A stretch of 64,000 nucleotides of DNA from Candidatus Pacearchaeota archaeon (GCA_041659265.1 JBAZYP010000009.1:12201-76200), one strand, 5' to 3'; shown: positions 47,143 through 62,598, counted from the stretch's first letter. Numbers and translations are program-made. The notes: generated by a model from the sequence alone, not told the origin.

Positions 47143-47144
47143 TT

Positions 47145-47456
47145 TTATTTACAATAACAATCACATTTATGGCAGGAATTCTCTTGAAAACTAAATTCAA
47201 CTCTAAAAAATTTCATCTTTCGAATATTGCACTCATTATAGCATCTAATTTTGCATTTATCTTCATTTTCAATTTGATGAAGAATAGTATTCATTATTAG
47301 AGAACATTCATCTTTTAATTCAATTAGGGAAGGTTCTTTATTTATATTTTTTATCTTATCATAAAATCCAAATTCTGATAAAATCAATGAGGTTAAAATT
47401 ACCAAGAGAACAATTGTTATTATAATAAGCTTCTTACTAATCTTCTTCTTTTTCAT
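47145..47456 (-). CDS. small N-terminally anchored Cys-rich protein
   Basis: Start trimmed to ATG 47456 (MKKKKISKKLIIITIVLLVILTSLILS..). The ectodomain has 8 Cys and ends ..SCHKCDCYCK. Confidence 0.4.
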   Translation of the reverse strand: MKKKKISKKLIIITIVLLVILTSLILSEFGFYDKIKNINKEPSLIELKDECSLIMNTILHQIENEDKCKIRCYNECNIRKMKFFRVEFSFQENSCHKCDCYCK

Positions 47457-48168: not shown

Positions 48169-48280
48169 TTTATTTAACCCCTTTAATAAATAGAAAAAGA
48201 CGAAAATTCTTTAAATACTTTTCGGTATCTTGTCTTCGAATTTTAATAAAGTTTATTAATTGTTTTTGGGACTTATATAT

Positions 48281-51200
48281 ATGCATTTTAATAAAAATTC
48301 AAAAGAGGCATTAGATATTGCTAAAAAAGAGATTAGAAAAGCAAAAATAGAAAAATTTGTTTTTTTGTTTTTTTTGTTTTTAACATTAATCTCTTGTTCT
48401 TTTTTAGTAGTTTTTTTATCATCTAAATTAATGATGACTGGATATGCATCTTATATAGAAGGAAGGGCTGGATATATCACTGAATTAAATATAACTCAAA
48501 CATTTATACCTGATTATTGGAGTGGGGTATATGGATTATCTTTAAGGGTTCCAGGTTATTTTAGTCAGATAATAAGAGAAGTTCCTAATTCTGAGATAGT
48601 TGAAGCTCCTTCTTATTTTGATTGTATACAAACAGATGCATTAGGTGGTCCTGAAATTTATGCAACTACCGCATCTTCAATAGATTTTAATTCATTAAGG
48701 CCTGCTACACTTGCAGAATTAGATTCCTATGTCGGATGCAGCGGATCTTTCCAATGTCCGAGTAATACTTTTACCAGTATTAATAGCTATGTCGTTGGAA
48801 CAAATAATATTACAGATGTTCCATCTACTTATACTTATAGATTTGATGGAAATCAAGGAACTTTTGATGTTGGAGCTTTAAATGATTCAGTTAATTTAGT
48901 ATTTGTTAGTCATTTAGCAGCAATTCAAAAGGGTTATAGTTCTACAAAGACAGTAAATTTTCAGATGCTTCTTCCAACATTACCCAACACTACTGTTGAT
49001 TATTATTTTTTTAATGATCCTAATGATGAATGTCCTGCTGGTGGAATTGGGAATAATATTAACGCTTCTGTTTATGGATATTCATTTGATATTTATAATA
49101 ATACTCTTCCTAATGTTACAGTTACTGTTGCAGGGTATAGTGCTGTAACTGACTCTAATGGATTTTATAATTTTTCATTTACAGTTAGTCCTGGAGTTTA
49201 TAATCTTATTGCCCAATTAGCTGGATATGATCCTTATTTTGACAATGTATCTGTAACTTTTTCTGAAAATGTTTTTGAAAGAAATATTACTATGGTAATC
49301 ATTACTCCTGGAATGAATGATACTATTTCCCCTATTGTTGATGGTTTTGTTTGGGATGAATCTTTAATCCCCATATCTGGTGCTAATGTATCTATGTCTG
49401 GAACTTCAAATGTTACCGACTCTAATGGATATTATTCAATATCACCTATAATTTTTCCAGGATTAAGTCCGATTATAGCTATAAATGAGGGCTATAATAA
49501 TTATTTTTATTTTTTAAGTTTTGATGATAACACTACTTATATAAATCATAATATTACCATGACTGTTGCTTCAACTAATTATCAATTTCCAACTGGCCCC
49601 TATACATCTGGCCCTTATACAACTGGCCCTTATCCTCAACAATTTCAACCTCAAATCATTCAAGCTAAGAAGAATGGAGAAGACTTTTGGATAAGCACTA
49701 AAGAAATAAGAAAGGAAGTAAGACAAAATACTTTTGTTGATGAAAAAATAGGTCTTTTTAATTTTAAAACTTCTACAATGAATATGTTATTTTCTTTATC
49801 TCCCAATCTTCAGGATTTTGTTAAAATAGATAAAACATCTGTTGTATTAAATCCTAATTCTTTTGCAGATGTAACTGTTACAATCTATGGAACGAAACCC
49901 CTTGGAGTTTATAATGGGTCTATAACTGTTTCTGGTGATGTGCAACAGACTATTCCTGTTCATATTACTGTTGTTGAAAAAAGATCTTTAGTTGAAGCTT
50001 TATTAATGCAAATAGATGTTTTTAATAAAATAGTAAGGCCTGGAGATACTGTAAAATATAAATTAAGTCTGCAAAATCTTTTAAGAGAACAAGGATATAA
50101 AGTATTTTTAAAAATTTATTTGACAGAATCTAATGGTACTACAATTTATGCTACTGATAATGATGAAGTGGAAATATTAAATTCTTTAACTTTGTTAAAA
50201 GAACTTAAATTGCCAGATAATATAACTGAAGGAGATTATTTATTAAATGTTGATGCAACGTATTTAAATCTTTTTTCAAGTGTAACTGCACCAGTAAAAA
50301 TAACTAAACCAATTTATTTATATTCCTTTTTAGGAATGCCTTTATGGTTATGGTTTTCATTGATTTCTTTCTTTAGTTTTATTTTATTAAATTTTTTAAT
50401 TTATAAATATTATAAAGAAAAGAAGAAGAGATACAAGATATTTTTAGATTACAATACTTTACCAAAACCTGGAACGGGTGTTGTAAGGCTAGGAAATATT
50501 GCTGAAACAAAAGTTCCAGCTTATTATGAACTTGAAAGATTAACAACTCACTGTATTGTTGCTGGGGCTACAGGAATGGGAAAATCAATTTCAGCTCAAG
50601 TTATAATTGAAGAAGCTTTAATGAATAATATCGCAGTAATTGTTATGGATCCAACTGCACAATGGTCTGGAATGTTAAGAAAATGTACTGATAAAAAAAT
50701 GATGTCTTTTTATCCTAAATTTGGATTAAAAGAAACTGATGCAAGAGCCTTTAAGGGAAATGTAAAACAGATAAGAGATGCTAAAGAGATAATTGATATA
50801 ACCAAATACATGACCCCTGGCCAAATACAGATTTTTTCAATGAATAAATTAGATCCAAAGGATATTGATATTTTTGTTGCTAATTTTATTAGACAGATTT
50901 TTAGATCAGATCCTAAAGAATCTCCAACTTTAAAAGTATTACTTGTTTTTGATGAGGTTCATAGACTTTTATCAAAATTCGGAGGAAGTGGAGAAGGATT
51001 CTTGCAAGTAGAAAGATCTTGTAGAGAGTTTAGAAAATGGGGATTAGGAGTAATGTTGATATCTCAAGTCTTAAATGATTTTGTTGGTGAAATTAAAGCA
51101 AATATTAATACAGAAGTTCAAGCAAGAACTCTTGAAGAGTCAGATCTTGATAGAATAAAAACTAAGTATGGGGAAGAATATCTTAAATCATTAGTAAGGG

Positions 51201-52012
51201 CTGAAGTTGGTGTTGCAATGTTTCAAAATGCTGAATATAATAGAGGTAGACCTTATTTTTTGAATTTTAGGCCTATATTACATAATACCAGAAGACTTCC
51301 TGATGAGGAACTTGAAAAGTATAATAAATATAATTTCCAGGTTGAAGATTTAGAATATCAAATCGAACAGCTTGAAAAAGAAAAATTAGATGTTTTTGAT
51401 CTAAAAATGGAATTAAAACTTGTTAAAGATAAGATTATGACTGGAAATTTTTCGGTTGTAGAAATTTATCTTGAAGGATTGGTTCCTAGAGTTGCTAAAG
51501 AATGGGAAAAACTTGGAAAACAACCAAAGAAATTGCAAACTCAATTATTATCTGAAGAAGAAATAAAAAAAGCTATGGAACAAGAGAAAAAAGAAAAAGA
51601 AGCATTAGCTGCAAAAGAAGAAAAGAAAGTTGAAGCAAAACCAATCGAGAAGCCTGTTGAAACTCAGGCAGTTAAACAAACTAATCCTGCTACAAATAAA
51701 ACTTCTGTTAATATTGTTAAACCTAATACTTCTATTCTACAACAAACTACAAAACCAGCAAGTTTAGTTAAACCAAATAATCCTTCTACTCAAAAAGTTA
51801 CAACCGTTATACCAACTAACGCTACAACTAAACCAGTAGTATTAGCTAAACCCGTTATTCCTTCTGCACCAGCAACAAAACCCGCAGTAGTAGTTAAACC
51901 AGCAACTCCTGTTGTTCAAACATCTAAACCAACGGTTATAACTAAACCTGCGGTGCAGTCTGTTCAAACCACTAAACTTGCTGAAACAAAAAAAGAAGAA
52001 GTAAAAAAATAA
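48281..52012 (+). CDS. membrane-anchored FtsK/HerA-superfamily P-loop ATPase with large extracellular N-terminal region (copy 2)
   Basis: Start set to ATG 48281. Signal anchor FVFLFFLFLTLISCSFLVVFL, two carboxypeptidase-regulatory-like units (..VTDSNGFYNFSF..), a (TGPY)x3 repeat, the juxtamembrane module and a TM. Cytoplasmic part: IVAGATGMGKS (50561-50587), VIVMDPTAQW, LLVFDEVHRL (~50941-50965) and a K/P/T/V-rich tail. Confidence 0.8.
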   Translation: MHFNKNSKEALDIAKKEIRKAKIEKFVFLFFLFLTLISCSFLVVFLSSKLMMTGYASYIEGRAGYITELNITQTFIPDYWSGVYGLSLRVPGYFSQIIREVPNSEIVEAPSYFDCIQTDALGGPEIYATTASSIDFNSLRPATLAELDSYVGCSGSFQCPSNTFTSINSYVVGTNNITDVPSTYTYRFDGNQGTFDVGALNDSVNLVFVSHLAAIQKGYSSTKTVNFQMLLPTLPNTTVDYYFFNDPNDECPAGGIGNNINASVYGYSFDIYNNTLPNVTVTVAGYSAVTDSNGFYNFSFTVSPGVYNLIAQLAGYDPYFDNVSVTFSENVFERNITMVIITPGMNDTISPIVDGFVWDESLIPISGANVSMSGTSNVTDSNGYYSISPIIFPGLSPIIAINEGYNNYFYFLSFDDNTTYINHNITMTVASTNYQFPTGPYTSGPYTTGPYPQQFQPQIIQAKKNGEDFWISTKEIRKEVRQNTFVDEKIGLFNFKTSTMNMLFSLSPNLQDFVKIDKTSVVLNPNSFADVTVTIYGTKPLGVYNGSITVSGDVQQTIPVHITVVEKRSLVEALLMQIDVFNKIVRPGDTVKYKLSLQNLLREQGYKVFLKIYLTESNGTTIYATDNDEVEILNSLTLLKELKLPDNITEGDYLLNVDATYLNLFSSVTAPVKITKPIYLYSFLGMPLWLWFSLISFFSFILLNFLIYKYYKEKKKRYKIFLDYNTLPKPGTGVVRLGNIAETKVPAYYELERLTTHCIVAGATGMGKSISAQVIIEEALMNNIAVIVMDPTAQWSGMLRKCTDKKMMSFYPKFGLKETDARAFKGNVKQIRDAKEIIDITKYMTPGQIQIFSMNKLDPKDIDIFVANFIRQIFRSDPKESPTLKVLLVFDEVHRLLSKFGGSGEGFLQVERSCREFRKWGLGVMLISQVLNDFVGEIKANINTEVQARTLEESDLDRIKTKYGEEYLKSLVRAEVGVAMFQNAEYNRGRPYFLNFRPILHNTRRLPDEELEKYNKYNFQVEDLEYQIEQLEKEKLDVFDLKMELKLVKDKIMTGNFSVVEIYLEGLVPRVAKEWEKLGKQPKKLQTQLLSEEEIKKAMEQEKKEKEALAAKEEKKVEAKPIEKPVETQAVKQTNPATNKTSVNIVKPNTSILQQTTKPASLVKPNNPSTQKVTTVIPTNATTKPVVLAKPVIPSAPATKPAVVVKPATPVVQTSKPTVITKPAVQSVQTTKLAETKKEEVKK

Positions 52013-52077
52013 TTTAACTAATTTAATAATATCTTAAAATACTAACTATTATAAATGAAAAATGCTTTTATTAATTG

Positions 52078-52419
52078 ATGATAATAAGAACTGAGTATGG
52101 TCAACTTAATAAAATAGCTAAGGAAATAGTTGAAAAAAGAATATTAAAGAAATTAGAAAAGATATGTGACAAGAAAGAAAGACTGGAAATGCTCAAGTAC
52201 ACACTAAAATCAACAATAGACTTAAAATATATAGAAATATTAAGAAAAATAAAAAAACTGGAAAAACAAAAAAAAGATATTTTTTTTATAGAGGTAAAAT
52301 CAGAGTTATTGGCTTCAAAAATAAGGATTTTTAATGCTACCTTTAATAAAAAAGATTTTTATAATGTTTTAACTATGTTTAATGATATAGAAAAAGAGAT
52401 GAACGATGTTTGGGTTTAA
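52078..52419 (+). CDS. small helical hypothetical protein
   Basis: ~113 aa, K/E/I-rich, with no TM. It overlaps the next gene by 14 nt. Confidence 0.35.
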   Translation: MIIRTEYGQLNKIAKEIVEKRILKKLEKICDKKERLEMLKYTLKSTIDLKYIEILRKIKKLEKQKKDIFFIEVKSELLASKIRIFNATFNKKDFYNVLTMFNDIEKEMNDVWV

Positions 52420-53263
52420 GAAAAAAGATAATGCAAATGCAGATACTCAGAATGCTGTAGCTGCTGCTGAAAAAGAAGAAGCAGAAGCTGCAAAACAAGA
52501 GGCTGCTGAAAAAAAAGTTACTGCTGTAAGTGAAAGTGCGTCTTCTGATGTAGTTAGACTTGCTTCTGAAATTGATAGATTAAAAGCGAGTGTTGAAAGT
52601 TTTAATGAAGTGAGAAAATCTTTTACTGAAAGATTTTCAAGAACTAGTGAACAGATTGGTGAACTAAGGGCAATGATTCTAGAAAGAGATAAATCTATCC
52701 AGGAGATAGAACTTAAATCAATAAAAGCTTATGATCTTGTTGAATCAGTTCATCCTGAAAAAATCATGACTGAAGTACAAAAACAAGATGCAAAATCTGA
52801 GGCATTAAAAGCAAATCTTGAAGGAAATGAGGCTATTATGGGTAGAATCATGGAAGAATTAAAAGAAACAAAAAGGAAAATAGAATTTTTTAGGGGAATA
52901 GAAGAAATTGTGAAATTAAGTGAAGAAATAAAGCAAGAATTAATTGAAATAAAGAAAATAGAATCAAGAATAAGCATTAATACTGATAAAGTAGATACTA
53001 TTTATTCAGAAGTTAGGAAGAAATTCCAAGATATTGATACTTTTAATTCAGAGTTACAGGAAATGAAGGTTTTGCAAGAACAGTCATCAAAGGATGTTAA
53101 TTTCCTTAAAGATAAAGTTTCTAATATGGTTGAAAAAGAAGAATTAAACAATCTTGTAAATAAGGTTCAGAGGTATATTGATACTTTAAAGGAATTAGAG
53201 AAGAATTCTTCATTAACAAAAGATATTGCTACACTAAAAACTATTCTTGATAGTCTTAAATAA
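52406..53263 (+). CDS. coiled-coil protein with MFGFKKK N-terminus
   Basis: 285 aa with an Ala/Glu-rich start, then long heptad-like helical segments. No TM. Confidence 0.45.
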   Translation: MFGFKKKDNANADTQNAVAAAEKEEAEAAKQEAAEKKVTAVSESASSDVVRLASEIDRLKASVESFNEVRKSFTERFSRTSEQIGELRAMILERDKSIQEIELKSIKAYDLVESVHPEKIMTEVQKQDAKSEALKANLEGNEAIMGRIMEELKETKRKIEFFRGIEEIVKLSEEIKQELIEIKKIESRISINTDKVDTIYSEVRKKFQDIDTFNSELQEMKVLQEQSSKDVNFLKDKVSNMVEKEELNNLVNKVQRYIDTLKELEKNSSLTKDIATLKTILDSLK

Positions 53264-53456: not shown

Positions 53457-53669
53457 ATGGTTATAAGTGAAAGTGAACTAAAAAATATCCTTAAAACAAG
53501 AACGAATATAGAGAAATCTACAACTATTAGCAGTGATGGAAAAAATCTTCTTACAAGAATACCTAAGGAAATTGCAGATTTTTTAGAAATTGAAAAGGGA
53601 TATAAGATAAAATGGAATATAACCAGAAATAAAAAAATAAAAATGGAGATAGTTGCAAATGAAATCTAA
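53457..53669 (+). CDS. AbrB/SpoVT-type DNA-binding protein
   Basis: 70 aa. ..GKNLLTRIPKEIADFLEIEKGYKIKWNI.. matches the swapped-hairpin pattern. 17-nt overlap with the next gene. Confidence 0.5.
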   Translation: MVISESELKNILKTRTNIEKSTTISSDGKNLLTRIPKEIADFLEIEKGYKIKWNITRNKKIKMEIVANEI

Positions 53670-53961
53670 ATTTAATAAAATAAGATTAGATGGAATTGAT
53701 AAAGATATTTTAAGAATTCTTTATTCTAGAAGACCTTTAGTAACATTAAAAATAGCCAAATATGCAAAACTTTCTAGTCCTACTGTTTCTGCTAGATTAT
53801 CTAATCTTGAAAAATTAGGGATAGTAAAAAAAGCCAGAATAAATAAAATAAGAAAGTTTGAAAGAACTTTTGGGGATAATCTTATCAAGATAAAATCAGC
53901 AAGTAGGATTTATTGGGACCTTGATTTAGAAGATAAAAATGGGGGCAATAAAAATGAATAA
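53653..53961 (+). CDS. winged-helix regulator (Lrp/AsnC-type HTH)
   Basis: ..DGIDKDILRILYSRRPLVTLKIAKYAKLSSPTVSARLSNLEKLGIVKK... It overlaps the start of the next gene. Confidence 0.6.
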   Translation: MQMKSKFNKIRLDGIDKDILRILYSRRPLVTLKIAKYAKLSSPTVSARLSNLEKLGIVKKARINKIRKFERTFGDNLIKIKSASRIYWDLDLEDKNGGNKNE

Positions 53962-54724
53962 TAAATTTATTATTATCATAATATTTTCTTTAATATCTCT
54001 ATTCTTTTTGGAAAGTATAATTGCAATATCTCCAAGTGGTGGAGAGATAATTGGAATAAAAAATGAAACTGCTCCTTCTGGATCTCCAACTTCTGCGCAA
54101 GCTGTTGCTGGAAATGTAACCGAACTTAATATATTCGGATTTTCAACCACTCAAACTTGGCAAGGCTATTTTGGAAATATTAGTGGAACAATCCAACTCG
54201 CAGATGGATCAGGTAGAGCTATGTATAATTGGAGCGCAACTAACCCTGAAGGGGAGGTATTTGCATCATTAAATGATAGTCTTATTTGGACAAATTTAGC
54301 ATGCTTTAATTTTTCTTCAGATGGAAGTTTTACTGATGATAGTCTTCAATCTGGAAATACTAGTTTATATGGGATGAATCTTACCCAATTAGAATCTGAT
54401 TTTGGAATAGAACCGAATGATGTTGATGGGGTTAATGAAACATTTATTTTTCAAGATCATCCTTTATTTTATGTGAATAATTTAATGTTTAGCCAGGGAG
54501 AATGCAGAAATACTAGAATTTATAATAGTACTGGACAAGGGGCTTTTGATGAGGTATTATTGTATTCTCCAGATAATCGTGCAGTAGTATTTGCTTCAAT
54601 ATTAAGAGATAATGCAATAGGTTTTGATGGAAGAGAATATGATTTTGAGATGCTTGTTTTAGAAGATGGTCATGGGGAAGATGTATCCACTTCAACTTAT
54701 TATTTTTACTTAGAGCTTGAGTAA
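53939..54724 (+). CDS. secreted WQGYFGN...YYFYLELE family protein (copy a)
   Basis: Signal ..FSLISLFFLESIIAIS (ATG 53954 is an alternative start), ~10 N-x-S/T sequons, and a C-terminus ..STYYFYLELE*. Confidence 0.65.
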   Translation: MGAIKMNNKFIIIIIFSLISLFFLESIIAISPSGGEIIGIKNETAPSGSPTSAQAVAGNVTELNIFGFSTTQTWQGYFGNISGTIQLADGSGRAMYNWSATNPEGEVFASLNDSLIWTNLACFNFSSDGSFTDDSLQSGNTSLYGMNLTQLESDFGIEPNDVDGVNETFIFQDHPLFYVNNLMFSQGECRNTRIYNSTGQGAFDEVLLYSPDNRAVVFASILRDNAIGFDGREYDFEMLVLEDGHGEDVSTSTYYFYLELE

Positions 54725-54992
54725 ATTTAATTTTTATATCTAAATTTTAATTTTTTTTATTTGAATTGCAAGTTTTTTTTATTTTTAGGTTTTTTAACCC
54801 TTAAAAAAGCAATTTATATCTATTTTAGTAATTAATTAAATAGTATATTAAATTTAAAAGAATTATAATTTTATTTTAATTATAATTTTAATGAGTTATT
54901 TACTTTTAAAGCTTTAATTAATTAATTAAACATAATATTTAAATAGTCTTGATATTTATTTACTTAAAAGAGGTATAATAAAGAAATAAGTC

Positions 54993-55604
54993 ATGGATTT
55001 TGACCTGTTCTTGACTTCCCCTAGGTGGGAAATCTTGCAAATAATAGCCGAAAGGCCTTCGTCTCCTGTAGAGATTGCTGAAAAACTTAAGACAACGGTA
55101 TCTTATGTCAGTCAGCAACTTAAATTGCTTGATGCTGCTAATCTGCTTTCCAAAGAGAAGACTGGTGCTGCTGAAAAAGGCAAACCAAGAACACTTTTTA
55201 GCCTTTCTAATGAATTATTTTATTTAACTGTTTTAACAAAGCAATTTTCTAAAAAGAAACTTTTTAAATTAGATGAACACCATAAAAATATTTTAAAAAT
55301 TTGGTTAATTGAAGATAATACTATTCATCATTTAATAGAAAAGTTATATTGGAAACTTCAAGAGGAAATTTCCGATATAGAAGGAATTTTCATTGATAAT
55401 ATCAATTTTAAGCCAAAAATTATTATTCTCTCTGAATCAAAAAAAGTAAAATTAAAGATAGATTCTTATATTGAAGATGAAGGAAAAAGGCTAGATCTTA
55501 ATATTATTTCTTCAAATACCTTTAAAAAATATTTTTCTGAAAAACTAATTTCATTACATGATCCAACTAAATTATTGGAAAAGTTGAAAGGAGGTTTGAT
55601 TTGA
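54993..55604 (+). CDS. ArsR-like winged-helix regulator with C-terminal extension
   Basis: ..SPRWEILQIIAERPSSPVEIAEKLKTTVSYVSQQLKLLDAANLLSKEK... It ends 4 nt before the next start. Confidence 0.6.
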   Translation: MDFDLFLTSPRWEILQIIAERPSSPVEIAEKLKTTVSYVSQQLKLLDAANLLSKEKTGAAEKGKPRTLFSLSNELFYLTVLTKQFSKKKLFKLDEHHKNILKIWLIEDNTIHHLIEKLYWKLQEEISDIEGIFIDNINFKPKIIILSESKKVKLKIDSYIEDEGKRLDLNIISSNTFKKYFSEKLISLHDPTKLLEKLKGGLI

Positions 55605-55608
55605 ATAG

Positions 55609-56391
55609 ATGGTTAACAAATTTTTAGTGAGTTCTAGACTAAGATTATTTTTGGTCTTAATTTCATGTGTTTTGTCTGTAAATATGATTTTGGCAGTTCC
55701 TTCAGGAAGTCAGATTACTGGTTTAACCAATTCATCTGCTGCTACTATTGCACCTGATTGGGATAATGCAATTGCAGGAAATGTTAGTGAATTAACTTTA
55801 TATGGTGATTCTGTAACTCAATCTTGGCAAGGTTATTTTGGAAATGTAACAGGAGCAATAAGACTAGCTGATGGATCTGGAAATGTAATGTATAATTGGA
55901 GTTTAACTAATCCTAGTGGAGAAATATATTCTTCATTTAATGATTCCATAATCTGGACAAATATACAATGTTTTAATTATACTGCTGCAGGAACTTTTGC
56001 AGATGATTCAGGACAAGCTGGTGCTACAAGCAGATTTGGTATGAATTTAACACAATTAGAAGGTTTATTTAATATAACTTCAACAGATGTTGACGGAGTA
56101 GATGAAACTTTTAGTTTAAACAGTCATGTTGCATTCTATACTAATAGCAAGCAATTTTCAGCAGGAGAATGTAACAATTCCAAAATATTCACTCAAAATG
56201 GAACTGGATATTTTGATGAAGTATTGTTGTATTCACCAGATACACAAGTAGTTGTATTTACATCAATATTAAAGAGCGATGCTTTAGGTTTTGATGGGGC
56301 TAAACATGATTTTGAGATGTTAGTCTTAGAGGATGGAAGAGATGGTAATAGTGCATTAACGCCATATTACTTTTATTTAGAACTTCAATAA
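55609..56391 (+). CDS. secreted WQGYFGN...YYFYLELQ family protein (copy b)
   Basis: Colinear with 53939-54724 over its full length (more than half the residues identical by eye). C-terminus ..TPYYFYLELQ*. Confidence 0.65.
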   Translation: MVNKFLVSSRLRLFLVLISCVLSVNMILAVPSGSQITGLTNSSAATIAPDWDNAIAGNVSELTLYGDSVTQSWQGYFGNVTGAIRLADGSGNVMYNWSLTNPSGEIYSSFNDSIIWTNIQCFNYTAAGTFADDSGQAGATSRFGMNLTQLEGLFNITSTDVDGVDETFSLNSHVAFYTNSKQFSAGECNNSKIFTQNGTGYFDEVLLYSPDTQVVVFTSILKSDALGFDGAKHDFEMLVLEDGRDGNSALTPYYFYLELQ

Positions 56392-56462: not shown

Positions 56463-57716
56463 ATGATAATTGAAAATAGAATTAGAAAAGATAAAAAGAA
56501 ATGTAAATTTTTTTTTAAATCTAAATATATAAATATTATATTTATAATATTAGTCATACTTACAAATAATATTTTAATTACAGCAACTATAATCGGAATA
56601 AGTCCGGCTTCTGTAGGTATGACAAAAGTATTACGTGGAGGATATGCAGAAAGAAATATTGTTGTTTCTACAGATAGTGTTGAACCAATTTTAATCAAAT
56701 TAACTCAAAGAGGAGATACTAATGGTTGGATAAATTATTCAGATGATAATTTTAGCATATCTAAAGATTCTCCTTATGTACTTAAGATGATTATTCTTCC
56801 TCCCCTGGATCAGAGTAATGGAAATTATTCTGGTTTTTTGACTTTTTCTTCAAGCCCATTTGGAAAGGGAAGAGAAGGCCAGGCAGTAGGAGTAATACGA
56901 TCTACATTAGATTTGGCTCTTGATTTTGAAATAATTGATACAGAAATTATGGATTGCTCTGCTAAAAATTTTATAGTCGAATCTGCAGAAAAAGGAGATG
57001 ATATTATCTTTAATCTTGTAGTAATAAATAATGGAAATATTCGATTTAAACCTAATTTGAATATAAAAATATGGGATATAGATCAGATTGAAATAAAAAA
57101 AGAAGAAAATATTTTAGGTCAAGAAATATTACCTACGACTGCTGATAATTATAGCGCAAGGGTTAAATCTGATGAGCTTGAAGTTGGTCAATATTTTGCT
57201 GAAATATCTATAGATGAGTGTTACTCTTCACAGCTTTTAACATTTGATATATTAACTCCTGGTGCATTAAAGGCTGATGGGTCTTTACTTGGAATAATAC
57301 TTTCAAGACAAGGTTATGTTGGAGAGAGGGTTCCTATACGAGTTAGTTTTAAAAATACTGGACAAAAAGATGTTTCAGCACAATTTGATGGAAAAATCGT
57401 TCTTGATGGCAAGACTATCCAAAAATTAGATAGTCAAAAAATAGGAGTATCAATTTCACAGACAAAAGATTTTAATTTTGAATTTCAACCTGAAAAACCT
57501 GGAAAATATATAATTAGCGGAAAAGTTTATTATAGTGGTAAGAAGACTTTTGAATCTAGTGCTAGTATAGATATAATTGATAAAACTTCCAAGAAATCTA
57601 ATTTATTCATTTATCTAATTTATTTAGCATTAATATTTTTTATTGTAGTTTTATTTTATAAGATAAATAAAGAAAGAAGAATCTATAATCATAATTTAAA
57701 GAGGTTAAGAAGATGA
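56463..57716 (+). CDS. membrane protein made of the two-domain juxtamembrane module plus C-terminal TM
   Basis: GNYSGFLTFSS, a CARDB-like second domain (..AEKGDDIIFNLVVINNGN.., ..LEVGQYFAEISI..), a third Ig-like unit, TM LFIYLIYLALIFFIVVLFY and a short basic tail. ATGA overlap with the next gene. Confidence 0.6.
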   Translation: MIIENRIRKDKKKCKFFFKSKYINIIFIILVILTNNILITATIIGISPASVGMTKVLRGGYAERNIVVSTDSVEPILIKLTQRGDTNGWINYSDDNFSISKDSPYVLKMIILPPLDQSNGNYSGFLTFSSSPFGKGREGQAVGVIRSTLDLALDFEIIDTEIMDCSAKNFIVESAEKGDDIIFNLVVINNGNIRFKPNLNIKIWDIDQIEIKKEENILGQEILPTTADNYSARVKSDELEVGQYFAEISIDECYSSQLLTFDILTPGALKADGSLLGIILSRQGYVGERVPIRVSFKNTGQKDVSAQFDGKIVLDGKTIQKLDSQKIGVSISQTKDFNFEFQPEKPGKYIISGKVYYSGKKTFESSASIDIIDKTSKKSNLFIYLIYLALIFFIVVLFYKINKERRIYNHNLKRLRR

Positions 57717-59932
57717 AAAAATTAATTTTAATTTTGTTATTAGTATTTTTAACAATAAATTTTGTTTTTTCACAATCACAAACCGTTGTTCTTGATTATA
57801 ACTATAATAATATCACTAGATTTGAAAAATCAATCAATTATCCTGATTTTCTTTTGAAAGTTATAACTGAAAATAATTCTATATGTAAATATAGTGTTAA
57901 TCGCGACATTAATTATATTGATATGGAAGGAAGTTTTGAAACTAATACCGAGAAGATTCATGAAAAAAGTTTTGTATCCTTGTCAGAAGGAGTTACAAGG
58001 TATTTCATAAAATGTATATTTTTATATAATAACTCTTTTGAACCTTCTCAAAATGAATTATTATTAAGGGTCAATTCTTATGTAACAGGAAAAATAACTT
58101 TATCTAGGGAGTCTCCATTAAAATCTGGTCAAGTAGAAGTTAGTTTAACTACCTCTAAAATAATTTCACAAACTCCTATTTTAAGTTATTCATTTGATGG
58201 AATTACTTATAATGATCTTCCTTTGGTTGGATCTCAAAAGAATTGGAAAGGTTATTTAATGATTCCAAAAAATGCTGGAGAAACATTATTATCTTTTAAA
58301 TTCAGTGCAAGTGATCTTGAAGGAAGGCAAGGTCAAGAGATTACTTCTGGCAAGGTTTTTGTTATTGATACTATTAAACCTAAGATGGTTTCATATATTG
58401 ATGCTGAAAGTGAAGAAGGAAGAATAAAGTTAGAATGGTATTATGATGAAGATTTTAAGGAATTTAGAATTTTTAGGTCAAATTCTCCGAATTCTGATTA
58501 TACTAATTTTTATAAGATAATTGACGGTACTTCTTTTTATGACACTCTTGTAGATAAGGGAAAAACTTATTATTACAGGGTTTCGCCTGTTGACGAGGCT
58601 GGAAATGAGGGAGAATTATCTAAAGAAGTATTAGCAACTGCACTACTTCCAAATAATTTACAAACAAATCTTAATGGGGCTATTGGATTAAATCCTGAAT
58701 TATTAGGATTTGTAGATAATTTTATTGTTGAAATAGATTCAGTAATTTCTGATTTAGAGAGTATTAAAGAAAATGTTTTAACTAAACCAGAAAAAGATAA
58801 GTCTTTATTTAATGAATTGCAATTGGATAAAGATCTTGAAACTTCCAAGTTGGAATTATCTAATTTAAGAAAAGATATTGAAAGATTTAAATCTCAAGAT
58901 CTTAAATTAGATGAACTTAATAAGAAAATAGATTCGTCTAGGCTAAAATTAAATGTTATAAAAAGAAAGATTCCTGAAAGTTTTGCTGTTATAAATGAAA
59001 ATGAAGAAGAGAATACATTTGATGAAAAAGAAACTAATGAAATTTTACTTGAATTATATCCTACTTTTTCACAAAAGGAAATCGAAAGGAGTTTAAAAGC
59101 TACAAAAGATATTATTAAAGAATCAGGATATCAGGTAAAAAGTTATTATTATATTCTTAATATTATTTATCTTGATGGAACTAAAAAAGAGATTTCTTTA
59201 ATTAAAAGAGATATAACTTCCCAATTGACTAGAAAGGATAATTATACTTTTATTGAATATATTCCAAAGGATGTAGCTGAAAGCACTTCTGAAATTCAGA
59301 TAAAAACTCTTGGATACGGGATTGTAAAAGAGGATCCAATAATATCTTTTGGAACAGATACAAAACAAATAATTTATATTATAAATAAAAAATCCAATTT
59401 AGATCTTATTAAGAATACTAAATTTTATTTAATAAATATTCCAATAAACTCTGAGGAATCAAATTTAGGTTTTGATATAACTGGATATTTTTTATTAGAT
59501 TATGATAAAAAAAGCTACTTTGGAATAGTTATTGCAACATTATTCTTGTCTTCTTTAATAATTTACTTTTTTTATTTAAAATATAAGGGAAAGAATAATA
59601 ATCTTGATGAAGTATATAAAAAATTAGACTTATTGGATTATCTTCTTGAATTAAAGGATGAATATAAAGCTGAAATTTCCTATAGGGATATTAATAATGA
59701 TTATATAAAATTAAGTTCAAAAGAGAAAGAAAAGTTATATCCAAAAATAGAGAAATTGAGGGAAAGAATCTTAATTTTAAAATTAAAAAAAGGGATAATT
59801 GAATTAAATAAAAATAAAGATTTTGAAAAATTCAAAAACTTAGAAAAAATATTTAATAGTTTAAGCATTGAATCAAGAAAAGAAATTTCTCCTTATTTTT
59901 ATAAATTAAAAAAGAACTTTGAAAATATATGA
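57713..59932 (+). CDS. surface protein with FN3 domain, coiled-coil ectodomain, TM and helical cytoplasmic tail
   Basis: Signal ..LTINFVFSQS. FN3 unit ..RIKLEWYYDEDFKEFRIFRS..GKTYYYRVSPVDEAGNEG... Then DITGYFLL + TM FGIVIATLFLSSLIIYFFY and a tail with ..LSSKEKEKLYPKIEKL... Confidence 0.65.
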   Translation: MKKLILILLLVFLTINFVFSQSQTVVLDYNYNNITRFEKSINYPDFLLKVITENNSICKYSVNRDINYIDMEGSFETNTEKIHEKSFVSLSEGVTRYFIKCIFLYNNSFEPSQNELLLRVNSYVTGKITLSRESPLKSGQVEVSLTTSKIISQTPILSYSFDGITYNDLPLVGSQKNWKGYLMIPKNAGETLLSFKFSASDLEGRQGQEITSGKVFVIDTIKPKMVSYIDAESEEGRIKLEWYYDEDFKEFRIFRSNSPNSDYTNFYKIIDGTSFYDTLVDKGKTYYYRVSPVDEAGNEGELSKEVLATALLPNNLQTNLNGAIGLNPELLGFVDNFIVEIDSVISDLESIKENVLTKPEKDKSLFNELQLDKDLETSKLELSNLRKDIERFKSQDLKLDELNKKIDSSRLKLNVIKRKIPESFAVINENEEENTFDEKETNEILLELYPTFSQKEIERSLKATKDIIKESGYQVKSYYYILNIIYLDGTKKEISLIKRDITSQLTRKDNYTFIEYIPKDVAESTSEIQIKTLGYGIVKEDPIISFGTDTKQIIYIINKKSNLDLIKNTKFYLINIPINSEESNLGFDITGYFLLDYDKKSYFGIVIATLFLSSLIIYFFYLKYKGKNNNLDEVYKKLDLLDYLLELKDEYKAEISYRDINNDYIKLSSKEKEKLYPKIEKLRERILILKLKKGIIELNKNKDFEKFKNLEKIFNSLSIESRKEISPYFYKLKKNFENI

Positions 59933-60246
59933 TGAAATTAATAATATTTTCCTTTTTATTAGTATTTTTTTTAGGATTAATTAGTGTTTCATCCTCTGAT
60001 ATTATTAAAATGAATTTAAATGAGGGTAAAAATAATCTGCATATAACCTCTGAAAAAGAATTTTTTGTTAAAGATTTAATTTTATTAAATCCGGATATAG
60101 AAGTTATTTCTTATATTAATGGAAATAGGACAATAGGATATATTAATATTTTTGGAGGGATAGGAGAGAATTTTTTAATAAGGAATGATATAAATTATGA
60201 GATTATCAGTAAAAGTGATGCTGAAATTATTTTTCCTTTAAATTAA
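59929..60246 (+). CDS. small secreted protein
   Basis: 105 aa, signal ..FFLGLISVSSSD. ATGA overlap upstream, and 1-nt spacing to the next gene. Confidence 0.45.
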   Translation: MMKLIIFSFLLVFFLGLISVSSSDIIKMNLNEGKNNLHITSEKEFFVKDLILLNPDIEVISYINGNRTIGYINIFGGIGENFLIRNDINYEIISKSDAEIIFPLN

Positions 60247-60247: not shown

Positions 60248-61513
60248 ATGAAAAAAAAATATTTTTTTCAAAAATTTAAAAATAATGAAATTAAAAGAAA
60301 TATTTTAATTAATAAATATTTTATTTCATTTATATTTAATATTTTTTTAATTTATTTTTTTATAACTTCTATAAGTGCGGCTCATTATATTGTTGGTTAT
60401 GTTAATAATTCAAGGGGAGGAATACAAGCAGATAATCATACTATTCTAATATGGAATCCCCTAGTTGGATTAGAGGATAATTTGACTGAAATTATTGGAA
60501 TTTCTGGAAGTTCTGGAGTTAGAAATGTTTATATGATTGATTGTGAAATGCTAAATAATTCTTGCAAGGTAGGAGATATAATTAATATTCAAGTCATAGA
60601 TAATGGCGATGGGTATTTTAGTAATCAAACTTATGTTAATATAACTGGTGCTGGATTTGATAGTGCACAAAATCTTTTTTTAATAACTCAAATGAATATT
60701 AGTTCAATAATTGTAGATGATTTTTTATCTAGTCCTTCTAATGAAATTGATTTACTTGCTGCAACAAATCAAACAGTAAATTGTGAGGCAATTATTGTTG
60801 GTTTAGATGGGGCCTCATTATTCAATATAAGTTCACAATTTTTTAATGATAATTTATCTTTTTATGGGGATAGCAATGATAATAATATCCATTATACCAA
60901 TAATAGTTGTTTTATTAATCAAAGTTATAATGGCAGTCATACAAAAAAGATTATTTGTTCATTTCCAGTTCAATATTATTCAAATAGTGGAAATTGGAGT
61001 TGCAGGATAAATATTATGAATAATTATTCAATTGAAACAAATAATTCAGATAACACTTTTATAAATACTTTGCTAGCTATAGGAGTAGATTCGCCTGTTG
61101 ATTATGGAGAATTTAATATTGGCAGTGTAACTGATGAAAAACAAATCGATATAATTAATTATGGCAATCAAGTCGCTAATTTAAGTTTAAAAGGATATGG
61201 CCAAATTGAAGGGGATGGATTTTCTATGATCTGCAATGGAAGTGGCAGCAATAATCTAAGCGTTTATCATGAAAAATATAACCTAACACAATCTAATTTT
61301 GGAGAAATTACTTTAAATCAAATGGAAAATATATACAAAAACTTAACAAGCGAAAGTGTAATTAATAGTTTTAATATTAAAATTAGAGAAAATGATTTGT
61401 TTAATGATGCAATAAATTCTTCTTATTGGAGAATGTATGTGCCCATTGGTGCTTTTAGTGGATCTTGTCAAGGAAATTTAATATTTGGAGCAGTAATTGC
61501 TCCAGGAGAATAA
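60248..61513 (+). CDS. secreted protein with HYIVGYV N-domain
   Basis: ..ITSISAAHYIVGYVNNS..ILIWNPLVGLEDNLTEIIGISGSSG..YMIDCEMLNNSCKVGDII..GAGFD.. is paralogous to the N-domain of 44582-46465. Confidence 0.6.
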   Translation: MKKKYFFQKFKNNEIKRNILINKYFISFIFNIFLIYFFITSISAAHYIVGYVNNSRGGIQADNHTILIWNPLVGLEDNLTEIIGISGSSGVRNVYMIDCEMLNNSCKVGDIINIQVIDNGDGYFSNQTYVNITGAGFDSAQNLFLITQMNISSIIVDDFLSSPSNEIDLLAATNQTVNCEAIIVGLDGASLFNISSQFFNDNLSFYGDSNDNNIHYTNNSCFINQSYNGSHTKKIICSFPVQYYSNSGNWSCRINIMNNYSIETNNSDNTFINTLLAIGVDSPVDYGEFNIGSVTDEKQIDIINYGNQVANLSLKGYGQIEGDGFSMICNGSGSNNLSVYHEKYNLTQSNFGEITLNQMENIYKNLTSESVINSFNIKIRENDLFNDAINSSYWRMYVPIGAFSGSCQGNLIFGAVIAPGE

Positions 61514-62598
61514 TGTTAGAAATAATTTATTTAATCAATAGCATTGTAACCTTAATTATATTTTTTATTTTATTAAAGGGCTATTTTATAGATAAAGCTA
61601 AAAAACATATACAAAGAGTTGTAAATGTCCTTTTTGGAATTTCATTAATTTATTTTATATTATTTTTGTATTCAAGTTTATGGTATTTTGAGATATTAGA
61701 ATATTCTTTAGAAGATTTTTTATTAATAAATACTTTGATGAACGTAATTCAAACATTACTTTTATTCAGGATAGTTTATTTATTAAATCAAAATAAAAAT
61801 CTCTTTTATTTATTATTTTTTTATGTTATTGGACTTTTATCAGTATTTTCTTCAATAATTAACTTTTATAATATTTTTTTAATAATTTCTTATCTATTAA
61901 CTTTAGCATTATTATTAGTATTAGGGGCCTCAATAGGAATTGTAAAAAAATCTTCAAATTATGGGATTGCATATTCTTGCATTTCTTTAATTTTATTATT
62001 ATTTTCTATGTATTTTCCAAATCTAATTTTTTTATTTTCAATATTTTCAAATATTTTGTTTTTATTATTTATTTATAATTTTATAAAAATTTTGGATAAA
62101 TGTCCTGTTGTTTATCATGACTCAAGGTATAAGAAGAAACATTATATATTTATTTTTTTAAGATATTTGACCTTTGTTATAACAATAACTAATTTGGTAT
62201 TTATAGGAACTCTAGCTGTTCATGAGTTTGGACATTTTTCAGTAGCTAAATTATATGGTTGTGAATATAGCAAGATAATCTATGAATCAGATATGCCTTA
62301 TACTGAAACTTTTTGCAAAATGGATTCAAAAAATAATCTATTATTTGGGGGGATATTTCTGCCATTTTTAATTGGATTTATATTATTTATAGTAGGGGGA
62401 TTAGTTATAAGGGATATATCTCTATTAATAATTGGATTTAATCTCATTGTTTCAACTAAAGATTTTATTGAATTGGGTCTAACTGAAAATATCATATTAA
62501 TCTCCATAATTGCAGGCGTTTTATTTTTAATAACCGGGATAGTAATGTTAGCTAAATCAAGAACAGAGGATTATATGCATATAGTCTTTGATTTATGA
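61513..62598 (+). CDS. polytopic membrane protein with M50 (site-2 protease)-like HExxH
   Basis: Start set to ATG 61513 (TAATG overlap with the previous stop). ~8 hydrophobic helices, with ..LAVHEFGHFSVAKLYGC.. inside a helix, as in M50/SpoIVFB-type proteases. Confidence 0.5.
   Translation: MLEIIYLINSIVTLIIFFILLKGYFIDKAKKHIQRVVNVLFGISLIYFILFLYSSLWYFEILEYSLEDFLLINTLMNVIQTLLLFRIVYLLNQNKNLFYLLFFYVIGLLSVFSSIINFYNIFLIISYLLTLALLLVLGASIGIVKKSSNYGIAYSCISLILLLFSMYFPNLIFLFSIFSNILFLLFIYNFIKILDKCPVVYHDSRYKKKHYIFIFLRYLTFVITITNLVFIGTLAVHEFGHFSVAKLYGCEYSKIIYESDMPYTETFCKMDSKNNLLFGGIFLPFLIGFILFIVGGLVIRDISLLIIGFNLIVSTKDFIELGLTENIILISIIAGVLFLITGIVMLAKSRTEDYMHIVFDL

What the first reader, a model, noticed from the sequence alone, without database searches (positions are those of the whole stretch)
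53939..56391. WQGYFGN...YYFYLELE-COOH secreted protein family: three copies with an invariant C-terminal strand (possible filament or donor-strand subunits)
53939-54724 and 55609-56391 are full-length paralogues. Shared blocks include TQ(T/S)WQGYFGN(I/V)(S/T)G.I.LADGSG..MYNWS.TNP.GE, LYSPD...VVF.SIL, and GFDG...DFEMLVLEDG. The last ~190 aa of 44582-46465 (about 45890-46465) carry the same domain (SWQTFYGNVT..LAD, FDVIDKEDIVFVTKI, GGYGIYDYEI). All three end at the very C-terminus with an aromatic beta-strand-like motif: YYFYLELE*, YYFYLELQ*, IYFYYELE*. They have Sec-type signals and about 10 N-x-S/T sequons each, though Asn-rich composition inflates that count. A strictly terminal, conserved aromatic strand is typical of subunits that polymerise by strand insertion or dock into a partner. 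That idea is inference only.
Basis: partly seen in the sequence, partly recalled or inferred. Interest (0 to 1): 0.65.

Follow-up and report, generated by a model that had tools for sequence, protein, structure and literature searches.

The report
New DPANN surface-assembly domain family
Three genes in this Pacearchaeota (DPANN archaeon) window carry a secreted, sugar-decorated protein domain with no known relatives. The same domain also forms the outer part of a neighbouring membrane motor protein, so it probably docks surface and adhesion proteins onto a so-far undescribed cell-surface machine.

Summary
53939-54724 and 55609-56391 are paralogues (54% identity), and the C-terminus of 44582-46465 carries a divergent copy (hhalign 94.7%).

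The family is large: 1149 clusters at 50% identity. It is restricted to Pacearchaeota/Woesearchaeota-type DPANN archaea. It has no Pfam, NCBIfam or PDB sequence match.

A confident AlphaFold2 model (pLDDT 94.9) has no Foldseek match in the PDB or BFVD.

The C-terminal Y-Y-F-Y-V-E-L strand is 84-98% conserved. 296 of 300 members stop exactly after it.

Seven N-glycosylation sequons and a Cys pair are conserved by position.

New finding: the extracellular N-terminal domain of the adjacent 1250-aa HerA/FtsK-type membrane ATPase (48260-52012) is homologous to the family (hhalign 98.7%, E 1.6e-16). There the "terminal" strand is internal.

The genes sit in a ~20 kb cluster whose order is kept across 78 genome loci. 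In related loci, giant adhesins (up to ~3200 aa) end in the domain.

Best reading: a homotypic docking or assembly module. It would tie anchorless secreted subunits and adhesins to an ATPase-centred surface apparatus.

C-terminal donor-strand insertion, as first proposed, is not supported. The monomer model is complete and confident. The N-terminal 45-residue arm is a better candidate for an exchanged element.

Function remains inferred.

The parts
53939..54724 (+). famA: free secreted subunit, 261 aa (public annotation starts at Met6 = nt 53954). Layout: signal peptide to ~aa 28, N-terminal arm aa 29-72 (PxG...AGNVTELNI), beta-rich core aa 73-261, ending YYFYLELE*.
55609..56391 (+). famB: second free secreted subunit, 260 aa, 54% identical to famA. 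Sits downstream of the wHTH gene H203 in the conserved order FAM-H203-FAM.
45881..46465 (+). Divergent (A2-type) copy of the domain at the extreme C-terminus of the 627-aa anchorless surface protein 44582-46465. It follows a CARDB-like domain directly and lacks the N-terminal arm. Ends IYFYYELE*.
44582..45880 (+). N-terminal 'passenger' part of the 627-aa protein: signal peptide, a ~110-aa domain shared with 60248-61513, Ig-like repeats, and a CARDB-like domain (aa 340-432).
48446..49015 (+). FAM-like ectodomain (aa ~63-252) of the HerA-type membrane ATPase, directly after TM1. Has the arm motif AGYITELN and the YYFF strand, but the strand is internal here.
   Evidence: hhalign 98.7%, E 1.6e-16; reciprocal HMM hits
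48260..52012 (+). 1250-aa membrane HerA/FtsK-superfamily ATPase. Layout: TM1 (aa 28-61), ectodomain (FAM-like, CarboxypepD_reg and MG2-like domains), TM2 (aa 690-716), then a cytoplasmic DUF87/HerA P-loop domain (Walker A GATGMGKS, Walker B LLVFDEVH) and a low-complexity tail.
52075..53263 (+). Two cytoplasmic proteins conserved between the ATPase and famA: a 114-aa helical protein (52075-52419) and a 285-aa coiled-coil protein (52406-53263). Homologues detected in 29 and 41 of the 79 fetched loci.
53653..53961 (+). 102-aa winged-helix (HTH_24/ArsR/MarR-like) protein. Its ORF overlaps the famA ORF by 23 nt.
54993..55604 (+). 203-aa winged-helix protein (HVO_A0114/ArsR-like N-terminus) conserved between the two FAM genes (homologue in 40 of the 79 fetched loci).
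56463..60246 (+). Three further exported proteins of the cluster: 417 aa (CARDB-like, C-terminal TM), 739 aa (C-terminal TM plus cytoplasmic coiled coil), and 105 aa (signal peptide only).
60248..61513 (+). 421-aa anchorless secreted protein. Its N-terminal domain is 43% identical to that of 44582-46465. N421-like genes follow FAM genes in both locus types.
61465..62598 (+). 377-aa polytopic membrane protein with an HEFGH motif and a weak, below-cutoff Peptidase_M50B-like match. A homologue is detected in 32 of the 79 fetched loci, usually just downstream of the FAM genes.
46474..48168 (-). Divergently transcribed small genes conserved upstream of the ATPase: a K-rich membrane protein (222 aa), a Cys-rich single-TM protein (117 aa), and an acidic 243-aa protein.

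Best explanation
The ~230-residue 'FAM' domain is an extracellular, N-glycosylated protein-protein docking or assembly module specific to Pacearchaeota/Woesearchaeota-type DPANN archaea.

Proposed arrangement:
- One copy is held at the outer face of the membrane as the first ectodomain of a HerA/FtsK-type ATPase. That family works as hexamers.
- Sec-exported free subunits (famA, famB) have no membrane anchor.
- Adhesin-like proteins end in the domain (the 627-aa protein here; proteins of up to ~3200 aa in related loci).
- Free subunits and adhesins bind the membrane-held copy and each other through like-with-like contacts. The result is a glycosylated surface structure (stalk, ring stack, filament or lattice) that displays adhesins for host attachment and is coupled to the ATPase.

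The conserved C-terminal strand is a core or edge strand of a complete fold, not a donated strand. If any element is exchanged between subunits, the best candidate is the conserved 45-residue N-terminal arm (PxGA...AGNVTELNI).

Shown: homology, domain architectures, synteny, exported and unanchored topology, conserved sequons, absence of fold matches. Inferred: assembly, arm exchange, coupling to the ATPase.
For: 1. **Same domain in three topological roles.**
 - Free secreted subunits.
 - The extreme C-terminus of every multidomain secreted member seen, 343-3290 aa.
 - The ectodomain of the adjacent membrane ATPase: hhalign 98.7%, E 1.6e-16. The A4 HMM reciprocally hits about 50 free subunits at E 1e-11 to 1e-3. 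19 of 28 HerA-like ORFs in the fetched loci carry the domain.
 - Nine other cluster proteins score 10% or less in the same test, which serves as a negative control.
2. **Gene order kept across the 78 genome loci:** ATPase, 114-aa protein, coiled-coil protein, (wHTH), FAM, wHTH, FAM, then surface proteins and an M50B-like protein. A second locus type has giant adhesin, FAM, FAM3, N421-like protein.
3. **No anchor.** FAM, the 627-aa protein and N421 have a signal peptide but no anchor. The ATPase has two TM segments flanking the ectodomain.
4. **Conserved residues are structural.** They are Gly, Trp, Pro, Cys, aromatics and sequon Asn/Thr. No polar catalytic set survives across the clades.
5. 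**Several deep clades coexist:** canonical, FAM3, A2 and A4, as expected for a hetero-assembly.
6. **Arm distribution.** The arm is present in free subunits and in the ATPase ectodomain but absent from the A2-type adhesin domain. It has no regular secondary structure and the lowest confidence in the model: pLDDT 85-88, and below 50 with the shallow alignment.
7. **Context.** A groundwater study reports Pacearchaeota as strongly host-attached and states that type IV pilus components are missing from DPANN genomes.
Against: - No oligomer model, no experimental data and no expression data are available.
- The confident monomer model shows no need for a partner.
- Sequence conservation of 50-60% identity across the clade is higher than is usual for pilins or S-layer proteins. 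It could instead reflect ligand binding.
- 9 of 28 neighbouring HerA-like ATPases lack the FAM-like ectodomain, so the fusion is not obligatory.
- Gene adjacency does not prove physical interaction.
- The covariation analysis was too weak to place the arm or the C-terminal strand reliably.
- The AlphaFold database could not be searched, so a relative among predicted structures cannot be excluded.
Confidence: 0.5

Rival explanations
1. Lectin-like or ligand-binding domain. FAM binds a conserved glycan or other ligand on the host cell or on the archaeon's own envelope. Free copies act as soluble or peripheral binding proteins. The adhesin-borne copy anchors or targets the adhesin. The ATPase-borne copy senses the same ligand.
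For: - The conserved motifs are aromatic-rich (WQGYFGN, YNW, YYFY), as in many carbohydrate-binding sites.
- The domain sits at the end of modular surface proteins, as binding modules often do.
- High sequence conservation fits a fixed ligand.
- The monomer model is complete.
Against: - No Foldseek similarity to any lectin or carbohydrate-binding fold. Legume lectin hits have E of 1.9 or more and TM of about 0.11.
- It does not explain several co-resident deep paralogue clades in fixed gene order.
- It does not explain why every secreted member ends exactly after the last strand.
- Anchorless free copies would be lost from the cell unless they also bind a cell component.
Confidence: 0.18
2. 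S-layer-type two-dimensional lattice. The free FAM paralogues are the main envelope lattice of these archaea. The ATPase ectodomain and the adhesins insert into lattice positions through their own FAM domain.
For: - Secreted proteins with many conserved N-glycosylation sequons.
- Found in 296 stretches across the species-representative genomes scanned, with several copies per genome.
- No other anchor.
- Shares the domain-sharing logic of the best explanation.
Against: - A mature size of ~26 kDa is small for an archaeal S-layer protein, and S-layer proteins usually diverge fast. This point rests on my general knowledge and was not tested here.
- The tight operon with an ATPase, coiled-coil and wHTH proteins points to a discrete machine rather than a bulk wall.
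- No abundance data are available.
Confidence: 0.15
3. One reading: filament subunits with an incomplete fold, completed by insertion of the neighbour's C-terminal aromatic strand (donor-strand complementation through the C-terminus).
For: - The strand is nearly invariant and the chain ends 0-1 residues after it in 296 of 300 members.
- The operon resembles a pilus operon, with several small subunits plus an adhesin whose C-terminal domain is subunit-like.
- Archaeal chaperone-free donor-strand filaments exist: threads, cannulae, bundling pili.
Against: - The monomer model is complete, with the strand at pLDDT 92-96.
- No structural similarity to solved structures, which include the donor-strand subunits.
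- In the ATPase paralogue the same strand is internal and is followed by a conserved linker.
- The listed archaeal and TasA donor-strand systems donate an N-terminal strand, as far as I know.
- AlphaFold2 can model a swapped strand as intramolecular, so this model is weakened but not excluded.
Confidence: 0.08
4. Secreted enzyme (for example a hydrolase acting on the host envelope), with the ATPase adjacency unrelated to function.
For: - High sequence conservation.
- Some conserved acidic and His residues within the canonical clade: D163, H174, E205, D235, H245, E259.
Against: - These residues are not kept in the A2 and A4 clades or in the broader A3 alignment.
- No Pfam, NCBIfam or PDB enzyme match by sequence or fold.
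Confidence: 0.04

Closest known systems
Chaperone-usher pili (Fim/Pap type) of Gram-negative bacteria
   Same: - Sec-exported beta-rich subunits of 20-30 kDa.
- Several paralogous subunits in one operon.
- An adhesin whose C-terminal domain is a subunit-like domain.
- Here too, one adhesin-borne version of the domain (A2 type) lacks the N-terminal extension that free subunits have.
   Different: - No Ig-like pilin fold (Foldseek finds no hit).
- No Pfam family of any kind, chaperone or usher included, matched most cluster neighbours.
- The organism is an archaeon with no outer membrane.
- The predicted monomer fold is complete.
- The membrane partner is a HerA/FtsK-type ATPase that itself carries the domain.
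Archaeal chaperone-free donor-strand filaments: Sulfolobus threads, Pyrodictium cannulae (CanA), bundling pili (AbpA/TasA-like), Tat-dependent haloarchaeal pili
   Same: Archaeal secreted subunits that self-assemble outside the cell without a type IV pilus machine. At least the threads are glycosylated (papers listed).
   Different: - No sequence or structural similarity: PDB sequence search empty and Foldseek empty.
- As far as I know, none of these systems includes an associated membrane ATPase carrying the subunit fold.
- Whether FAM forms a filament at all is unknown.
Envelope machines built round FtsK/HerA/VirB4-class ATPases: type IV secretion and conjugation, the crenarchaeal Ced DNA-import system, type VII secretion (EssC/EccC)
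   Same: - A membrane-bound P-loop ATPase of the FtsK-HerA superfamily is encoded with small secreted or extracellular proteins.
- Weak, far-below-cutoff NCBIfam hits to CedD, TraD, TraC and VirB4 over the P-loop region.
- The best PDB sequence relatives are HerA helicases.
   Different: - No VirB2/CedA-type pilin, WXG100 or other marker component was detected by Pfam or NCBIfam.
- The extracellular partners use Sec signal peptides.
- The ATPase has a ~630-residue ectodomain whose first domain is homologous to the secreted partners. I know of no precedent for this.
C-terminal-only targeting or anchoring domains on modular surface proteins (T9SS C-terminal domain, dockerin)
   Same: A conserved domain always at the extreme C-terminus of otherwise unrelated, often giant, cargo or adhesin regions.
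   Different: - The domain is about 230 residues, which is much larger.
- It also exists as abundant stand-alone proteins and inside an ATPase.
- No similarity by sequence or fold.

Membership tests
Donor-strand (chaperone-usher type) pilins | Incomplete Ig-like fold that lacks its last strand | tested here: not met
   The AF2 monomer is complete: pLDDT 94.9, with the C-terminal strand at 92-96. Foldseek against the PDB finds no match at E <= 0.001 (best E 0.32, TM 0.18). Coordinates could not be inspected.
Donor-strand (chaperone-usher type) pilins | Dedicated periplasmic chaperone and outer-membrane usher in the operon | tested here: not met
   Pfam and NCBIfam scans of the cluster neighbours gave no such families.
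Archaeal donor-strand filaments (threads, cannulae, AbpA/TasA-like) | Sequence or fold similarity to the solved subunits (jelly-roll or TasA-like beta-sandwich) | tested here: not met
   A profile search of PDB sequences returned nothing at E <= 10. Foldseek against the PDB (entries to April 2026) gave no hit. Pfam gave no hit of any kind, including Peptidase_M73/camelysin.
Archaeal donor-strand filaments (threads, cannulae, AbpA/TasA-like) | N-terminal strand donated to the neighbouring subunit | tested here: inconclusive
   A conserved N-terminal arm exists and is missing from the adhesin-borne A2 domain. No multimer model could be run, and the covariation signal was weak.
Type IV pilins / archaellins | Class III signal peptide: a short charged leader cleaved before the hydrophobic helix, which stays in the mature protein | tested here: not met
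   The hydrophobic segment is followed by an A/V-x-A site and then the conserved x-x-P-x-G-A mature N-terminus. This layout is typical of signal peptidase I.
FtsK-HerA superfamily ATPases (the neighbour 48260-52012, not the finding itself) | P-loop domain with Walker A and B motifs and similarity to HerA/DUF87 | tested here: met
   Pfam DUF87 at E 1.9e-12, above its cutoff. PDB HerA relatives at E 4e-9 to 7e-7. GATGMGKS and LLVFDEVH are visible in the sequence. Hexamer formation was not tested.
Archaeal S-layer proteins | Forms the paracrystalline outer lattice and is among the most abundant proteins | not testable with these tools
   No expression, proteomic or imaging data are available for this organism.
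Outer-membrane beta-barrels / autotransporter translocators | Amphipathic transmembrane barrel ending in an aromatic residue, located in an outer membrane | tested here: not met
   The chain ends in E, Q or D. The model contains helices and long loops. Seven conserved sequons are spread along the chain. No Pfam barrel family matched.

The most novel reading that the evidence does not exclude
The cluster encodes a previously unrecognised class of archaeal envelope-spanning machine. A hexameric HerA/FtsK-type pump would use its own FAM ectodomains to nucleate a stack or filament of secreted FAM subunits, tipped by giant adhesins. Pacearchaeota and Woesearchaeota would use it to latch onto host cells and possibly to move DNA or other macromolecules. 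The interleaved winged-helix proteins would act as DNA-handling parts. If so, it would functionally replace the type IV pili reported as missing from DPANN genomes.
Probability: 0.15. Interest if true: 0.95.

Novelty: categorically new. Interest (0 to 1): 0.75.

Why it matters
Pacearchaeota and Woesearchaeota are abundant, uncultured archaea with very small genomes. They are thought to live attached to hosts, but how they attach is not known. One groundwater study finds Pacearchaeota unusually firmly host-attached and states that type IV pilus components are missing from DPANN genomes.

This family gives a concrete, testable candidate for the attachment apparatus:
- a large family (over 1000 clusters at 50% identity) of conserved extracellular proteins;
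- a fold with no match among solved or viral predicted structures;
- the same domain on free subunits, on giant adhesins and on a membrane ATPase.

If the ATPase-anchored assembly is real, it would be a new type of prokaryotic surface or transport machine. It would also offer handles such as antibodies, cryo-ET landmarks and heterologous expression for studying DPANN-host contact. At the least, it defines a new domain family, with its architectures and gene neighbourhood, that databases do not yet describe.

Tried and rejected
- **First AF2 run** (44 close homologues, signal peptide included): poor model, pLDDT 71.8, with meaningless Foldseek hits. I replaced it with a 111-sequence, more diverse alignment of the mature protein.
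- **Known-family searches, all empty for the domain:** Pfam on single sequences and on all 111 members, NCBIfam, PDB sequence profile, Foldseek against the PDB, and Foldseek against BFVD.
- **Provirus or mobile-element idea** (FtsK-like packaging ATPase plus capsid-like beta proteins): rejected. There are no relatives in phage records, plasmids or IMG/VR contigs. The cluster is syntenic in chromosomal contigs of many genomes.
- **Outer-membrane barrel or autotransporter idea:** rejected (see the membership test).
- **Enzyme idea:** rejected, because no polar catalytic residues are conserved across clades.
- **Search for further FAM-like domains** among nine other cluster proteins by hhalign: none.
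- **Mean-field DCA** on 377 sequences (Neff ~335): recovers local hairpins and hints that the arm lies near residues 75-78, 106/107, 220/221, 234 and 255. It is too weak, and the C-terminal strand too invariant, to decide between contacts within a subunit and contacts between subunits.
- **Third large-database protein search**, seeded with the ATPase ectodomain profile: returned only nine fragments and added nothing.
- **Literature searches:** found no description of this family or cluster.
- **Oligomer prediction:** not possible.
Full report
**Origin of the window.** GC content is 23-31% throughout. famA is identical to a hypothetical protein of a Candidatus Pacearchaeota archaeon MAG (P0001). 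The window is therefore a chromosomal piece of a DPANN archaeon.

**Check of the observation.** The three ORFs and all quoted motifs are present.
- famA (53939-54724) and famB (55609-56391) are 54% identical over their whole length, E 3e-105.
- The last ~190 residues of 44582-46465 are only 24% identical to famA, E 6e-5. Profile methods confirm the relationship: hhalign of the 44-sequence family alignment A1 against an 11-sequence alignment of that subfamily (A2) gives 94.7% probability, E 6.3e-8. The A2 HMM finds famA and famB at E ~1e-6.
- In 377 non-redundant members the terminal strand is nearly invariant: Y254 98%, Y255 90%, F256 90%, E259 97%, L260 84%. 296 of 300 proteins stop exactly at the last profile position.
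- Each paralogue has 10 sequons against 3.4-3.8 expected from composition, P <= 0.003. Seven sequon columns are conserved in 51-94% of members. Two cysteines (C122, C189) are conserved in 99-100%.
The sequon excess is real and conserved by position.

**Size and range of the family.**
- A word-indexed search found 785 relatives, all unnamed and all from Pacearchaeota, Nanoarchaeia or unclassified archaeal bins.
- An exhaustive HMM search of 1.84 billion cluster representatives found 1149 hits at E <= 0.001 and 308 at E <= 1e-30.
- A scan of one genome per GTDB species found 296 encoding stretches. The 78 loci kept are labelled Pacearchaeota, Woesearchaeota, Nanoarchaeota or unclassified archaeon, apart from one Patescibacteria-labelled contig and one Diapherotrites-labelled contig. 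These two are probably binning or labelling errors.
- There are no relatives in phage records, plasmids or IMG/VR viral contigs.
- There is no Pfam, NCBIfam or PDB sequence match, whether sequences are scanned singly, as a profile, or across all 111 members of a diverse alignment.

**Structure.**
- A first AlphaFold2 run on a shallow alignment was poor: pLDDT 71.8, below 50 for residues 28-80.
- A second run used the mature protein with 111 diverse homologues and is confident: pLDDT 94.9, pTM 0.89.
- The model has about eleven beta strands, two short helices and a 45-residue N-terminal arm. The arm has no regular secondary structure and the lowest, though still good, confidence (85-88). The C-terminal strand is at pLDDT 92-96.
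- Foldseek finds nothing in the PDB (best E 0.32, TM 0.18) or in BFVD (best E 0.23).
- Solved structures of pilins, TasA-like proteins and the archaeal donor-strand filaments should be in that PDB copy, so the domain is not a recognisable member of those families.
- I could not inspect coordinates or run multimers.

**Domain architectures.** In every multidomain secreted member seen, the domain is at the extreme C-terminus. These proteins range from 343 to 1724 aa among the representatives, and are 3216 aa (ATG-to-stop) to 3290 aa (stop-to-stop ORFs) in the genome loci. N-terminal to the domain lie Ig-like, CARDB, beta-helix-like and other adhesin-type regions. Two kinds of fusion exist:
- Canonical-type fusions keep the N-terminal arm (GAxV...AGNVTE).
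- The A2 type, which includes the window's 627-aa protein and the giant adhesins of the second locus type, follows a CARDB domain directly and starts at the WQxFYGN strand, with no arm.

**The main new result.**
- A profile of the family also hits the N-terminal ectodomain of the HerA-like membrane ATPase encoded just upstream.
- hhalign of the family alignment A3 against 15 such ectodomains (A4) gives 98.7% probability, E 1.6e-16, over 172 columns. The match covers the arm (AGYITELN), the WxGxYG strand, EVYAS, the NFQML strand and the YYFF strand.
- The reverse HMM hits about 50 free subunits at E 1e-11 to 1e-3, nearly full length.
- As a negative control, nine other proteins of the cluster score 10% or less against the family.
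- In the ATPase the "terminal" strand is internal and is followed by a conserved DPxDxCPxGG segment.
- Hydropathy places the domain outside the cell, between TM1 (aa 28-61) and TM2 (aa 690-716). The DUF87/HerA P-loop domain lies in the cytoplasm.
- All 19 long (1118-1275 aa) HerA-like ORFs in the fetched loci carry the domain. Nine short forms (about 700-844 aa) do not.
- The window also holds a short paralogue, 37917-40409. It is 55% identical to residues 504-1160 of the long one. The FAM-like part is therefore an N-terminal addition to one of two paralogous ATPases.

**Gene neighbourhood.** Across the 78 genome loci, plus one locus fetched by exact protein look-up, two arrangements recur.
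- Type 1: (adhesin with A2 domain), (TM-anchored surface protein), two or three small divergent genes, ATPase, 114-aa protein, 285-aa coiled-coil protein, (small wHTH), FAM, wHTH, FAM, (CARDB-type TM proteins), N421-like secreted protein, M50B-like polytopic membrane protein. The window is a full example, spanning about 41.4-62.6 kb.
- Type 2: giant adhesin ending in CARDB-FAM(A2), canonical FAM, a distinct FAM3 paralogue, N421-like protein. FAM3 is 29-30% identical to the other classes and 52% identical within its own class.
- Both types can lie next to each other on one contig (L021 and L067).
- FAM, the 627-aa protein and N421 have signal peptides but no anchor. Several neighbours are TM-anchored.

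**Interpretation.** The conserved positions are glycines, aromatics, prolines, the Cys pair and sequon Asn/Thr. No polar catalytic set survives across the canonical, A2 and A4 clades. An enzyme is therefore unlikely.

One fold appears in three forms: membrane-held on an ATPase, as unanchored free subunits in several deep paralogue clades, and as the C-terminal module of adhesins. All are encoded together in a fixed order. This is most simply explained by like-with-like docking or co-assembly at the cell surface. That step is an inference, not an observation.

Whether the product is a short stalk, stacked rings on a hexameric ATPase, a filament or a lattice cannot be decided here.

It is not excluded, because AlphaFold2 can fold a swapped strand back in cis.

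The N-terminal arm is the better candidate for an exchanged element. It is conserved. A variable Pro/Ser/Asp-rich linker separates its two conserved parts (PxGA...V and AGNVTELNI). It is present in free subunits and in the ATPase, and it is missing from the A2 adhesin module, which would then be acceptor-only, like the tip adhesin of a chaperone-usher pilus. Weak covariation puts arm residues near residues 75-78, 106/107, 220/221, 234 and 255, next to the C-terminal strand. This is tentative.

The rule that secreted members end 0-1 residues after the strand remains unexplained. It suggests that the free C-terminus is buried or lies in an interface in those forms.

**Comparison with known systems.**
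- In its logic the cluster resembles pilus operons, with several small subunits plus an adhesin carrying a subunit-like C-terminal domain. It also resembles the archaeal chaperone-free filaments listed.
- It resembles type IV secretion, Ced and type VII systems only in having a membrane FtsK/HerA-class ATPase next to extracellular proteins. The NCBIfam hits to CedD, TraD and VirB4 are weak, confined to the P-loop region and far below their cutoffs.
- It fails the tested membership features of all of these families (see the membership test).
- I know of no system in which the ATPase itself carries an ectodomain homologous to its secreted partners. Five literature searches, and a reading of the archaeal dark-matter paper they turned up, found no description of this family or cluster.

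**Relevance.** One groundwater study reports Pacearchaeota as enriched in the large-cell size fraction, which implies firm host attachment. It also states that type IV pilus components are missing from DPANN genomes. A conserved adhesin-displaying apparatus would fill that gap.

**Verdict.**
- The family, its predicted fold and its link to a HerA-type membrane ATPase appear to be undescribed.
- Confidence that it is a surface docking or assembly module tied to the ATPase apparatus is about 0.5. Lectin-like binding (about 0.18) and an S-layer-type lattice (about 0.15) are the main rivals.

Noticed in passing
window 37917-40409 (+), with 36002-37936 (+) and 32110-35691 (-): A second membrane HerA-like ATPase (830 aa). 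It is 55% identical over 666 aa to residues 504-1160 of the 1250-aa one, but has a signal peptide and no FAM-like domain. Large surface proteins flank it, each with a C-terminal TM segment and a Lys/Glu-rich cytoplasmic tail. The window therefore holds two paralogous ATPase-centred surface modules.
   Followed up: partly
window 44582-~44990 and 60248-~60700: A ~110-residue N-terminal domain (SA(S/A)HYI(T/V)GYV...CE(L/M)LNNSCK(I/V)GD) is shared by the 627-aa FAM-ending protein and the 421-aa secreted protein: 43% identity, E 7e-36. It has no Pfam match. N421-like genes follow FAM genes in both locus types.
   Followed up: partly
window 61465-62598 (+): A polytopic membrane protein with an HEFGH motif and a weak, below-cutoff Peptidase_M50B-like match (E 5.7e-4). 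A homologue is detected in 32 of the 79 fetched loci, usually just downstream of the FAM genes. It may process a component of the cluster, but no substrate is identified.
   Followed up: partly
L056 10876-11622 (and the equivalent gene in about 23 other loci): A distinct FAM3 paralogue clade. It always lies directly downstream of a canonical FAM gene, is 29-30% identical to the other classes and 52% identical within its own class. The window has no FAM3 copy.
   Followed up: partly
window 53939-53961: The 102-aa winged-helix ORF overlaps the famA ORF by 23 nt, which suggests co-transcription. The public annotation starts famA at Met6 (nt 53954), which reduces the overlap to 8 nt.
   Followed up: no
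window 46474-48168 (-): Three small genes transcribed divergently from the ATPase. The acidic 243-aa protein and the Cys-rich single-TM 117-aa protein (ending CHKCDCYCK) have homologues upstream of the ATPase in 17 and 14 of the 79 fetched loci. The Lys-rich 222-aa membrane protein is seen in only 3. No family match for any of them.
   Followed up: no
L074 (JAHYJW010000009.1) and L021/L067 (MWBV01000001.1): The contig carrying the FAM cluster in L074 is labelled 'Patescibacteria group bacterium'. The contig in L021/L067 is labelled 'Candidatus Diapherotrites'. The gene content matches the Pacearchaeota/Woesearchaeota loci, so mis-binning or mislabelling is likely.
   Followed up: no
window 43282-44091 (+): A SpoIIM-like (PF01944, E 8.6e-15) polytopic membrane protein lies between the surface-protein genes. 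It is seen near FAM genes in a few other loci.
   Followed up: no
window 20551-21927 (-), 25392-26972 (-), 22058-25360 (+), 14652-16409 (+): SRP54 and an FtsY-like SRP receptor flank an 1100-aa fn3-containing protein. A 585-aa protein with a C-terminal CAP (cysteine-rich secretory protein) domain lies further upstream. The window is generally rich in export and surface genes.
   Followed up: no
window 18403-18477 (-) and 31282-31354 (-): tRNA-Gln(TTG) and tRNA-Thr(TGT) genes, found by ARAGORN.
   Followed up: no
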